Virus record (IMG/VR): IMGVR_UViG_3300027278_000003
DNA length: 64,000 nucleotides
Source: a virus
Lineage: Duplodnaviria > Caudoviricetes
Strand: one strand, 5' to 3'
This document shows positions 28,208-28,972 of this stretch, one piece after another (positions within the stretch are counted from its first letter, which is position 1; every line of letters starts with the position of its first letter). The notes below the pieces were generated by a model. The model saw only the letters and a program-made list of their open reading frames with translations. It was not told the DNA's origin and searched no databases. The position numbers and the translations under genes are program-made.

Positions 28208-28232
28208 AAAGTGCGCTTCGGCGCACTTTTTT
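28208..28232 (+). terminator. Rho-independent terminator with cUUCGg loop
   Basis: AAAGTGCGC-TTCG-GCGCACTTT-TTT. Confidence 0.9.
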
Positions 28233-28233
28233 A

Positions 28234-28262
28234 TTGACATCTAATACTTTATATGCTATAAA
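28234..28262 (+). promoter_or_regulatory. Sigma70 promoter of tmRNA
   Basis: TTGACA-N17-TATAAA. Confidence 0.75.
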
Positions 28263-28268
28263 TAAACT

Positions 28269-28622
28269 GTTAGCGTTGAAGCAACGTGGACACATACTGG
28301 ACTCGGGTGCGAATCCCGACAGCTCCACCACAAACACACTTTGAAAGCGTATGTTATACAGCAAAAGCAAGGTGGTCTAGGAACGGTAGTACGATGAGGA
28401 ACCCTAGTACGATTACAGGTTCAAATCCTGTAAAGTGTGTTTTTGATGGGGCTGAATTAGGAATCGACAGGTGTGAAGATAGAGTGGAGTTAACCGTGGT
28501 GACCTACGTTATTCGGTCAAACTTTATAACTGCAAACACAAACGCAGCGCCAGCAATGGCAAAACTAGCGGCTTAATAGCACGTGGGGGTTGGCAACTTA
28601 CCTAGCAACAGAAAAGTTGCAA
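28269..28622 (+). ncRNA. ssrA: Circularly permuted (two-piece) tmRNA; tag ANTNAAPAMAKLAA
   Basis: 3' acceptor piece first (T-arm TCGGG-TGCGAAT-CCCGA, CAGCTCC-ACCA ending 28330); 5' GGGGCTG at 28448 pairs with it including G3.U70; tag frame 28532-28576 after ATAACT; outer ends approximate. Confidence 0.93.
28332..28442 (+). ncRNA. tRNA-like element inside the tmRNA intervening segment
   Basis: 11-bp closing stem AAACACACTTT/AAAGTGTGTTT, canonical T-arm ACAGG-TTCAAAT-CCTGT, D-arm-like TGGTCTAG..GGTA. Confidence 0.55.
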
Positions 28623-28639
28623 CTTAACGGAGTTTATAT

Positions 28640-28972
28640 ATGTCAGAAGAATTTGGTATTGGTCCAGATGAACTTAGAGGTCTAATTGGTGGTATTTTGA
28701 TCATCGTTGATATTCGCGACGAGGATAATGTTGATGCCCAAGGACGCATTAAAGATGCGTTCGAAATAGAAGAATACGATCTTCCAAATCACGTTTCTGC
28801 GGTACCGATGTACTTTAGAACTGCAAACTGTGTTATCATTTGTGAAACCGGCGAGGTTGCACGTAAATGGGTAGAAACATATCGTAGTCAAGATGATGAT
28901 GTTCAACTTCTTCGCTACTATATTGGTGGTTCTGCCGCACTCTTTGAGGAAGTACCGGAGTTAGTATCGTAA
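28640..28972 (+). CDS. Rhodanese-like domain protein
   Basis: IIVDIRDE..GRIKDA..VIICETG..YYIGGSAA. Confidence 0.6.
   Translation: MSEEFGIGPDELRGLIGGILIIVDIRDEDNVDAQGRIKDAFEIEEYDLPNHVSAVPMYFRTANCVIICETGEVARKWVETYRSQDDDVQLLRYYIGGSAALFEEVPELVS

What the first reader, a model, noticed from the sequence alone, without database searches (positions are those of the whole stretch)
28331..28447. A tRNA-like RNA nested in the intervening segment of a permuted tmRNA
Seen: the 117-nt spacer between the tmRNA CCA (28330) and the 5' GGGGCTG (28448) is itself structured. It has an 11-bp closing stem (28332-28342 with 28432-28442) and a canonical T-arm, ACAGG-TTCAAAT-CCTGT (28415-28431), stacked directly on a 7-bp acceptor-like helix (ACACTTT/AAAGTGT), which is the tRNA geometry. 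It also has a D-arm-like TGGTCTAG..GGTA but no clean anticodon arm, no CCA, and a ~30-nt insert after the acceptor strand. Established: two-piece tmRNA processing (RNase P plus 3' trimming) excises the intervening segment, which is usually short and treated as waste. Inference: each maturation event would release a second tRNA-mimic RNA. It could act as a decoy for anticodon nucleases or tRNA-sensing defences, a Y-RNA-like scaffold, or a processing aid; it may also be a relic tRNA.
Basis: partly seen in the sequence, partly recalled or inferred. Interest (0 to 1): 0.85.

Follow-up and report, generated by a model that had tools for sequence, protein, structure and literature searches.

The report
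T-arm passenger RNA inside phage tmRNA
The spacer normally discarded when this marine phage's two-piece tmRNA matures is a conserved, tRNA-derived structured RNA that other phages carry as a separate gene, so it is probably a small functional RNA of unknown job riding in the tmRNA precursor.

Summary
A permuted (alphaproteobacterial-type) tmRNA lies at 28237-28667. Its CCA ends at 28330 and its 5' GGGGCTG starts at 28448. The 117-nt spacer has a perfect 11-bp closing stem and a canonical T-arm stacked on it.

It is not a tRNA and not a YrlA-type Y RNA. ARAGORN finds no tRNA, Rfam matches only the T-arm (14.4 bits), and there is no anticodon arm, no CCA and no Ro protein.

It is one member of a small undescribed RNA family, here called module A. 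Five distinct versions exist:
- three sit in phage tmRNA spacers;
- one is a self-standing gene with its own promoter, a 23-bp stem and a T-run;
- one lies about 415 nt upstream of a GOLLD RNA in a 480-kb phage.

All 11 closing-stem pairs and 4 of 5 T-stem pairs show compensatory changes, while a core of about 42 nt is nearly invariant.

A second T-loop module from other tmRNA spacers occurs mostly between tRNA genes. Bacterial spacers, and most phage spacers, are plain hairpins.

Best reading (about 0.55): an autonomous tRNA-derived passenger RNA released by tmRNA maturation. Release and function are not shown. This scan has already noted passenger RNAs and small genes in tmRNA and tRNA spacers on other DNA.

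The parts
28208..28229 (+). Intrinsic-terminator-like hairpin ending the upstream (porin-like) gene. It marks the tmRNA as a separate transcription unit.
28233..28261 (+). Promoter-like TTGACA-17-TATAAA just upstream of the tmRNA precursor.
   Evidence: sequence; not called
28269..28330 (+). tmRNA acceptor piece: the 3' half of the tRNA-like domain, with its T-arm, ending in CCA at 28330.
28332..28342 (+). 5' strand of the 11-bp closing stem of the spacer module.
28343..28372 (+). GAAAGC plus hairpin 1 (28347-28362), with the conserved block GTTATACAGC (28353-62) and a linker. Conserved in 4 of 5 versions and replaced by another hairpin in L707.
28373..28414 (+). Nearly invariant core: TGGTCTAGGAACGGTAGTACGATGAGGAACCCTAGTACGATT. 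It holds the D-loop-like GG, a weakly supported CTAGG/CCTAG helix (28377-81 with 28403-07) and two GTACGAT repeats.
28415..28431 (+). Canonical T-arm: a 5-bp stem and the 7-nt loop TTCAAAT (U54 U55 C56 R57 A58 kept), stacked on the closing stem.
28432..28442 (+). 3' strand of the closing stem.
28443..28447 (+). Conserved TTGAT leader before the RNase P site. It is partly complementary to ACCA and is shared by nearly all phage tmRNAs of this type.
28448..28624 (+). tmRNA coding piece: the 5' acceptor strand GGGGCTG and the tag reading frame at 28532-28579.

Best explanation
The 117-nt spacer is one copy of a conserved structured RNA of about 110 nt, here called module A. The module has an 11-bp terminal helix, a four-way junction, a canonical tRNA-type T-arm stacked on the helix, and a nearly invariant core of about 42 nt.

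It descends from a tRNA-like RNA but is no longer a tRNA. It exists independently of tmRNA in other phages. In this lineage it is lodged in the loop of the ordinary spacer hairpin of an alphaproteobacterial-type two-piece tmRNA.

Proposed mechanism:
1. It is transcribed with the tmRNA from the promoter at about 28233-28261.
2. The RNase P cut before G28448 makes its 3' end.
3. The cut and trimming that expose CCA28330 make its 5' end.
4. The blunt helix and tRNA-elbow-like fold protect the released RNA of about 115 nt.
5. That RNA then acts in trans on a partner that reads tRNA-like shape, or its conserved core binds a specific partner.

Shown here: the structure, its conservation, its covariation, and its existence outside tmRNA genes.
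Inferred: release, stability and trans action.
Unknown: the partner.
For: 1. The structure is real and beyond chance.

2. There are five distinct homologues.
- The window, L176 and L140 are nested in tmRNA spacers.
- L215 is a separate gene. It has a TTGACA-16-TATTGT promoter ending about 8 nt before a 23-bp terminal stem, then a T-run, and its tmRNA lies about 6 kb away.
- L707 comes from a complete 480-kb phage. It lies about 415 nt upstream of a GOLLD RNA (184.7 bits), while that phage's tmRNA has a different, T-loop-free spacer.

3. Covariation.
- All 11 closing-stem pairs and 4 of 5 T-stem pairs change on both sides and stay Watson-Crick.
- On a model-fitted alignment, 95.9% of cells are paired, against 72% in shuffles (0 of 500 shuffles reach the observed value) and 24-50% when the partner is slid by 1-3 columns.

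4. The 42-nt core and the T-loop signature UUCRA are almost invariant, while the stems differ completely. That is more constraint than a processing signal needs.

5. An unrelated T-loop module from other tmRNA spacers occurs in 45 contexts. At most about a quarter of these are tmRNA spacers; the rest are mostly spacers between tRNA genes or free-standing. Its core is invariant and its flanking stems covary. Such modules are therefore cargo in tRNA-type precursors.

6. Sampled bacterial tmRNA spacers are plain 20-60-nt hairpins, some with the same closing-stem consensus. The module is thus an insertion into a pre-existing hairpin.
Against: - No expression or end-mapping data exist. The only RNA-library contig that covers the region spans acceptor piece, spacer and coding piece of a relative, and it may be precursor or DNA.
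- Only five distinct sequences are known, and the effective number is low.
- The interior helix CTAGG/CCTAG is poorly supported: its middle pair is broken in 3 of 6 rows.
- Folding energy is unremarkable (z = -1.48).
- The 16-bp helix does not fit enzymes that measure the 12-bp tRNA top half, so 'tRNA mimic' may be only partial.
- T-arm spacers are rare among phage tmRNAs: 1 of 131 unique spacers in scans that did not require a T-loop. The module is therefore dispensable for tmRNA function.
Confidence: 0.55

Rival explanations
1. Processing or punctuation aid. The T-arm on a long helix makes the spacer a substrate for tRNA-processing enzymes: RNase P at its 5' side, or RNase III on the continuous helix formed by the acceptor stem, the ACCA/TTGAT region and the closing stem. 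The 117-nt 3' trailer would then be cut off next to CCA in one step, much as mascRNA defines the MALAT1 3' end.
For: - The module always lies beside stable-RNA processing sites: tmRNA spacers, upstream of GOLLD, and (for the second module) between tRNA genes.
- The closing helix runs on into the upstream ACCA, both in tmRNA and in tRNA arrays.
- M. smegmatis YrlA, a tRNA-like RNA with a 7-bp stem, is cleaved by RNase P (PMC4201824).
Against: - The helix plus T-stem length is 16, 17 and 28 bp in homologues, not 12. The same paper reports no RNase P cleavage of YrlA or Yrn1 RNAs that lack a 7-bp stem.
- L215 has its own promoter and terminator and no neighbouring stable RNA to process.
- Nearly all bacterial and phage two-piece tmRNAs mature with a plain hairpin.
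- An invariant 42-nt core is not needed for punctuation.
Confidence: 0.2
2. Decoy or sponge for a host factor that senses or attacks tRNA, such as a defence nuclease, a toxin acting on the tRNA body, or a tRNA-modifying enzyme. This would be one specific job for the released RNA.
For: - The T-loop signature and the D-loop-like GG are kept.
- The genome is a large phage that also carries its own tRNAs and tmRNA.
- Similar modules lie in phage tRNA arrays.
Against: - There is no anticodon arm or loop, so it cannot mimic the target of anticodon nucleases.
- There is no CCA end, so it cannot soak up enzymes that act on the 3' end.
- No defence-related gene is linked to it.
- This reading cannot be tested with sequence alone.
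Confidence: 0.1
3. Y-RNA-like (YrlA-type) scaffold that binds a Ro60/Rsr protein through its terminal helix and presents a tRNA-like domain.
For: The architecture resembles YrlA: a long helix formed by the 5' and 3' ends plus a T-arm module.
Against: - No RF02553 hit at E up to 10 on the spacer alone.
- No TROVE gene in the 112.6-kb record.
- No GNCGAA motif in the spacer.
- The terminal helices are perfect duplexes, without the conserved bulged Ro site.
Confidence: 0.04
4. A decaying relic of a tRNA gene that once inserted into the spacer, with no present function.
For: - One permuted tmRNA with an intact tRNA-Ala gene in its intervening sequence is on record (PMC11915505).
- L132 carries a class-II-like D-arm in its spacer.
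Against: - Compensatory changes occur in every closing-stem pair and in the T-stem.
- The core is near-invariant across phages whose stems are unrelated.
- Independent gene copies exist.
Confidence: 0.06

Closest known systems
Permuted tmRNA with an intact tRNA-Ala gene in its intervening sequence (Nawrocki, Petrov and Williams 2025, PMC11915505; reported there as unique)
   Same: A tRNA-type RNA nested between the CCA of the acceptor piece and the 5' end of the coding piece, so that tmRNA maturation would release it.
   Different: That one is a high-scoring, complete tRNA. This one has only the T-arm and a stacked helix, with no anticodon arm and no CCA. It scores 14.4 bits against the tRNA model's gathering score of 29, and it belongs to a conserved non-tRNA family.
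Small stable RNAs co-transcribed with phage tRNA clusters (T4 species 1 and 2 RNAs, rnaC/rnaD; from my own knowledge, not checked here)
   Same: Phage-encoded, tRNA-sized RNAs with tRNA-like features. They are made from tRNA-type precursors and their function is unknown.
   Different: No sequence relation was tested. The T4 RNAs end in CCA and lie in a tRNA operon. This one lies in a tmRNA spacer and lacks CCA.
YrlA (bacterial Y RNA, Rfam RF02553; Chen et al. 2014, PMC4201824)
   Same: A long terminal helix plus a tRNA-like module with a T-arm. One member is cut by RNase P.
   Different: No Ro/Rsr gene, no Rfam hit, no GNCGAA motif and no D-arm.
mascRNA/MALAT1 and MEN-beta tRNA-like 3' elements (Rfam RF01684; mechanism from my own knowledge)
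   Same: A tRNA-like fold directly downstream of a functional RNA, which could both define that RNA's 3' end and be released as a small RNA.
   Different: mascRNA is eukaryotic, has a 7-bp acceptor stem and gains CCA. Here the helix is 11 bp or longer, and cleavage has not been shown.
tRNAs linked to GOLLD RNA in phages (Kretsch et al., bioRxiv 10.1101/2024.12.08.627333)
   Same: One homologue (L707) sits just 5' of a GOLLD RNA, where tRNAs are often found.
   Different: It is not a tRNA. No GOLLD RNA was found in the window itself; the rest of this genome was not scanned.

Membership tests
tRNA | Recognised by tRNA gene finders and by the covariance model | tested here: not met
   ARAGORN at default settings finds no tRNA in the spacer. 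Rfam RF00005 on the spacer alone gives a local T-arm hit only: 14.4 bits against a gathering score of 29, E = 1.1.
tRNA | 7-bp acceptor stem plus 5-bp T-stem (a 12-bp stack), then a discriminator base and CCA | tested here: not met
   The stack is 11 + 5 = 16 bp. The 3' tail is TTGAT, with no CCA. Homologues have 17 and 28 bp.
tRNA | Anticodon arm (5-bp stem, 7-nt loop) and a D-arm with a stem | tested here: not met
   The hairpin in the anticodon-arm position has a 21-nt loop and weak comparative support. The GG-containing block has no flanking stem.
tRNA-type T-arm (T-loop motif) | 5-bp stem closed by a G-C pair, with a 7-nt loop U54-U55-C56-R57-A58 | tested here: met
   ACAGG-TTCAAAT-CCTGT. 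The signature is kept in all homologues (8-nt loop in L707), and 4 of 5 stem pairs show compensatory changes.
YrlA / bacterial Y RNA | Match to Rfam RF02553 | tested here: not met
   No hit at E up to 10 on the spacer alone.
YrlA / bacterial Y RNA | Encoded next to a Ro60/Rsr (TROVE) gene | tested here: not met
   No PF05731 match in the 112.6-kb record. The record is estimated to be 31% complete, so absence from the whole phage is not proven.
YrlA / bacterial Y RNA | Conserved GNCGAAN0-1G motif (PMC4201824) | tested here: not met
   No CGAA occurs in 28331-28447.
Two-piece (permuted) tmRNA, alphaproteobacterial type (the host gene) | Acceptor piece ending in CCA, a spacer, a coding piece starting with GGGG, and a tag reading frame | tested here: met
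   ARAGORN tmRNA* with tag ANTNAAPAMAKLAA; RF04321 101.8 bits; RF01849 91.7 bits.
mascRNA-like 3'-end processing element | RNase P cleavage at its 5' side creates the 3' end of the upstream RNA | not testable with these tools
   Needs in vitro cleavage or end mapping. The laid RNA contigs do not show ends.

The most novel reading that the evidence does not exclude
Phages carry a hidden class of T-loop-bearing passenger RNAs. These ride inside stable-RNA precursors (tmRNA spacers, gaps between tRNAs, GOLLD leaders) and are cut out for free by the host's tRNA-processing enzymes. They would then act as partial tRNA mimics that bind or titrate a host factor reading the tRNA elbow. Module A of this window would be one such family, with a conserved 42-nt core as its specific binding surface.
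Probability: 0.25. Interest if true: 0.8.

Novelty: new variant of a known kind. Interest (0 to 1): 0.6.

Why it matters
The intervening segment of two-piece tmRNA has been treated as waste. One nested tRNA was recently reported as a unique oddity. Here the segment carries a conserved RNA under selection that matches no Rfam family and that also exists as a free gene and beside a GOLLD RNA.

Other phage tmRNA spacers carry a second T-loop module, which is also found between tRNA genes, or small conserved peptide genes. Together these show that phage stable-RNA precursors serve as expression and processing platforms for cargo.

This gives a concrete, testable set of new phage small RNAs. It also offers a cheap way to find more: look in the loops of tmRNA spacers and in the gaps of tRNA arrays.

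Tried and rejected
- **Rfam.** The window at gathering threshold, and the spacer alone at E up to 10, gave only the tmRNA families and a local T-arm hit. The first spacer scan could have hidden tRNA-clan hits under the tmRNA match, so I repeated it on the spacer alone.
- **Relaxed ARAGORN.** It produced only implausible calls, such as tRNA-Pro with a 15-nt intron at the 80% threshold. Disregarded.
- **RAGATH-33.** A weak hit on L215 (13 bits against a gathering score of 120, E = 2) was absent from the window's spacer. Treated as chance.
- **One family for all T-arm spacers.** Neither an nhmmer core profile nor the covariance model R1 found the other T-arm spacer classes (MAL1/MD18, L184, L125, L128 and others) at E up to 1. 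The only exception was a marginal hit in L142. They are therefore separate families.
- **Linked genes.**
  - An RLIG1-type RNA ligase lies about 0.9 kb upstream of the free-standing copy in L215, but none is found in this genome or in L176's record.
  - No SmpB is encoded in the four phage records searched.
  - The proteins downstream of the module in L215 and in the window are unrelated.
- **Structural readings by eye.** A kink-turn at GTAC-GAT-GA fails because the opposite strand lacks the needed GA. The likeness of TAGGAACGG to the tmRNA's own D-loop region TAGGAATCGAC, suggesting a 'mini tRNA-like domain', has no model support.
- **Sequencing runs.** RNA-library contigs cover parts of relatives' tmRNAs. 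One 1008-nt contig bridges acceptor piece, spacer and coding piece. Contigs show neither ends nor levels, so they say nothing about processing.
- **Metagenome scan.** The scan for the module returned only the three variants already known, plus chance hits.
- **Genome-collection scan.** It found one real case, in a Lysobacterales MAG contig of the same type as a viral one.
- **Not tested.** Whether the T-arm and 3' strand copy a host tRNA 3' end (an attP-like relic). Covariation within the spacer makes this unlikely.

Full report
**What is there**

The window is part of a 112.6-kb IMG/VR virus record, estimated to be 31% complete. ARAGORN calls a permuted tmRNA at 28237-28667 with the tag ANTNAAPAMAKLAA. 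Rfam agrees: tmRNA_permuted RF04321 scores 101.8 bits and alpha_tmRNA RF01849 scores 91.7 bits.

The acceptor piece ends with CCA at 28330 and the coding piece begins with GGGGCTG at 28448. Within it:
- 28332-28342 is the exact reverse complement of 28432-28442.
- ACAGG-TTCAAAT-CCTGT at 28415-28431 abuts the 3' stem strand.

The minimum-energy fold is a four-way junction made of the closing stem, a small hairpin at 28347-28362, a hairpin closed by CTAGG/CCTAG, and the T-arm. The energy itself is unremarkable (z = -1.48). However, none of 200,000 shuffles had both a terminal stem of 7 bp or more and a TTCRANN hairpin.

**What it is not**

- ARAGORN at default settings finds no tRNA in this or any related spacer.
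- My first Rfam scan of the region could have hidden tRNA-clan hits under the tmRNA match, so I rescanned the spacer alone. The only result is a local match of the tRNA model to the T-arm: 14.4 bits against a gathering score of 29, E = 1.1. No YrlA or other family appears at E up to 10.
- The helix plus T-stem stack is 16 bp rather than 12. There is no CCA, no D-stem and no 7-nt anticodon loop.
- The genome fragment holds no TROVE/Ro gene.

Membership in tRNA and in YrlA is therefore tested and not met. The T-arm itself is canonical.

**Homologues and covariation**

Two GenBank roseophages, DSS3_MAL1 and MD18, have tmRNAs with a 98-nt spacer of the same layout but unrelated sequence: CCA, one base, an 8-bp stem, an interior, AGCGG-TTCGAAA-CCGTT, the other stem strand, TTGAT, then GGGG.

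Pattern scans of IMG/VR and of the metagenomes then found true homologues of the window's interior:
- **L176** differs by one base in the spacer and has a different tag.
- **L140** has a diverged spacer of 119 nt.
- **L215** is not in a tmRNA.
- **L707** is not in a tmRNA.

All four distinct versions have a perfect 11-bp closing stem of different sequence. Every one of the 11 pairs, and 4 of the 5 T-stem pairs, changes on both sides and remains Watson-Crick.

On an alignment fitted to the covariance model R1, 95.9% of cells are paired. This compares with 72% in shuffles (0 of 500 reach the observed value) and 24-50% when partners are slid by 1-3 columns. The closing helix has 11 of 11 compensatory pairs. 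That alignment is fitted to the structure and holds few sequences, so these numbers lean in favour of the structure. The explicit per-sequence check does not depend on it.

The interior CTAGG/CCTAG helix is weakly supported: its middle pair is broken in 3 of 6 rows.

By contrast, a core of about 42 nt (28373-28414) and the T-loop signature UUCRA are almost invariant.

**The module exists outside tmRNA**

In L215 the module lies between two protein genes.
- A terminator ends the upstream gene.
- A TTGACA-16-TATTGT promoter (10 of 12 matches, with an extended -10 TG) ends about 8 nt before a 23-bp terminal stem.
- The stem is followed by a T-run.
- That phage's tmRNA lies about 6 kb away.

In L707, from a complete 480-kb phage, the module lies on the same strand as a GOLLD RNA match and about 415 nt upstream of it (RF02032, 184.7 bits). 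No ORF of 50 aa or more lies between them on that strand. GOLLD RNAs are often next to or linked with tRNAs (bioRxiv 10.1101/2024.12.08.627333). That phage's tmRNA has a 102-nt spacer with no T-loop.

The module is therefore an autonomous RNA that in three lineages sits in the tmRNA spacer.

**How general is this**

In scans that did not require a T-loop, I recovered 131 unique ARAGORN-confirmed phage spacers of 28-117 nt. Almost all share a 10-11-bp closing stem and the TGAT leader. Only one has a strict T-loop motif.

A scan that did require a T-loop next to the 3' stem found 24 unique tmRNA spacers in several unrelated sequence classes.

One of these classes has the core GTCAGCACTGTGGGAAG...GGTTCGAATCC. 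It occurs in 45 distinct contexts. At most about a quarter of these are tmRNA spacers. The rest mostly lie directly after the CCA of one tRNA and before the next tRNA in phage tRNA arrays, or are free-standing. The core is invariant and the flanking stems covary. It has no Rfam match.

On the bacterial side, 149 of 151 sampled Alphaproteobacteria have a tmRNA match. That tally includes the unpublished genome G042, but I used no sequence from it. The 48 spacers that I extracted from this sample, out of its 30 best-scoring and 20 longest matches, are mostly plain hairpins of 20-60 nt. Some have the same closing-stem consensus, and none has a stacked T-arm.

The closing stem is therefore ancestral and ordinary. 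The T-arm module is an insertion into its loop.

**Mechanism**

The best-supported reading is a passenger RNA.
1. It is transcribed with the tmRNA.
2. It is freed by the RNase P cut at G28448 and by the cut or trimming that exposes CCA28330. These steps are established for two-piece tmRNA.
3. It is protected by its blunt helix and tRNA-like fold.
4. It acts in trans through its conserved core and its T-loop/GG 'elbow'.

The last two steps are inference.

The processing-aid rival draws on three things: the module's constant position beside stable-RNA processing sites, the extension of the helix into ACCA, and RNase P cleavage of M. smegmatis YrlA (PMC4201824). It is weakened by four things:
- the helix length varies (16, 17 and 28 bp);
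- L215 has its own promoter and terminator;
- the module is dispensable in most tmRNAs;
- an invariant core is more than punctuation needs.

A decoy role for anticodon nucleases is unlikely without an anticodon loop. A relic tRNA is contradicted by the covariation.

**Known relatives and novelty**

The tmRNA database paper reports as unique one permuted tmRNA with an intact tRNA-Ala in its intervening sequence. It lists only 79 phage tmRNAs (PMC11915505). I found no paper describing T-arm modules in phage tmRNA spacers.

Earlier notes of this scan, on other DNA, describe related things: a passenger RNA in phage tRNA and tmRNA precursors, a protein gene in a tmRNA spacer, and long-stem spacers after a tRNA's CCA that contain GGTTCGAATCC. 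My searches confirm the last two kinds independently.

I class this as a new variant of a known kind: tRNA-derived small RNAs processed out of stable-RNA precursors.

**Limits**

- No data on expression, RNA ends or binding partners.
- Only five distinct sequences.
- The interior fold is unresolved.
- The collection scans were capped.

Noticed in passing
L006, L007, L034, L070, L081, L104, L013, L470 (tmRNA spacers in IMG/VR contigs): Other phage permuted tmRNAs carry, in the same spacer, a Shine-Dalgarno site, an ATG and a hydrophobic reading frame of 23-30 codons (for example MEKKLMWLAI...YFGYDFR). The peptide is conserved across variants, and its TGA stop ends one base before the coding piece's G1.
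   Followed up: partly
L655 635-722, L670 about 2201-2296, L688, L665, L666; free-standing in L650, L653, L656: A second T-loop module (core GTCAGCACTGTGGGAAG..GACAA.ACTAG.ACAAGGTTCGAATCC) fills gaps in phage tRNA arrays, for example between tRNA-Lys and tRNA-His. Its closing stem pairs with the upstream tRNA's CCA. It also occurs in tmRNA spacers. The core is invariant, two core positions covary (A-T, C-G, G-C), and it has no Rfam match.
   Followed up: partly
L707 9664-10096 (minus strand): A GOLLD RNA (RF02032, 184.7 bits) in a complete 480-kb phage genome, with the window's module about 415 nt upstream on the same strand.
   Followed up: partly
L215 11884-12426: An RLIG1-type RNA ligase gene (PF17720, E = 4e-13) and an NT5C nucleotidase gene lie just upstream of the free-standing module. 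No such ligase is found in the window's own record.
   Followed up: partly
L142, L164 (tmRNA spacers): Two phage tmRNA spacers each contain two separate T-arm hairpins. L132's spacer has a class-II-tRNA-like D-arm (CCC-GAGTGGTCTAA-GGG), yet no tRNA finder calls it.
   Followed up: no
window 28376 and 28395: An estuary metatranscriptome contig of a close relative differs at T28376A (as in L176) and at T28395C, inside the otherwise invariant GATGAGG block.
   Followed up: no
own genome outside the window, G000:C1 1993-4969: A small tRNA cluster (Met x2, Leu, Arg). It also holds two long calls with odd anticodons: 'Phe' aaa (96 nt) and 'Ser' act (90 nt).
   Followed up: no
window 28413-28447: The T-arm plus the T-rich 3' stem strand and TTGAT scores as terminator-like. 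In L215 the equivalent long stem plus T-run sits directly before a Shine-Dalgarno site and ATG, an arrangement that also resembles a riboswitch-type leader.
   Followed up: no
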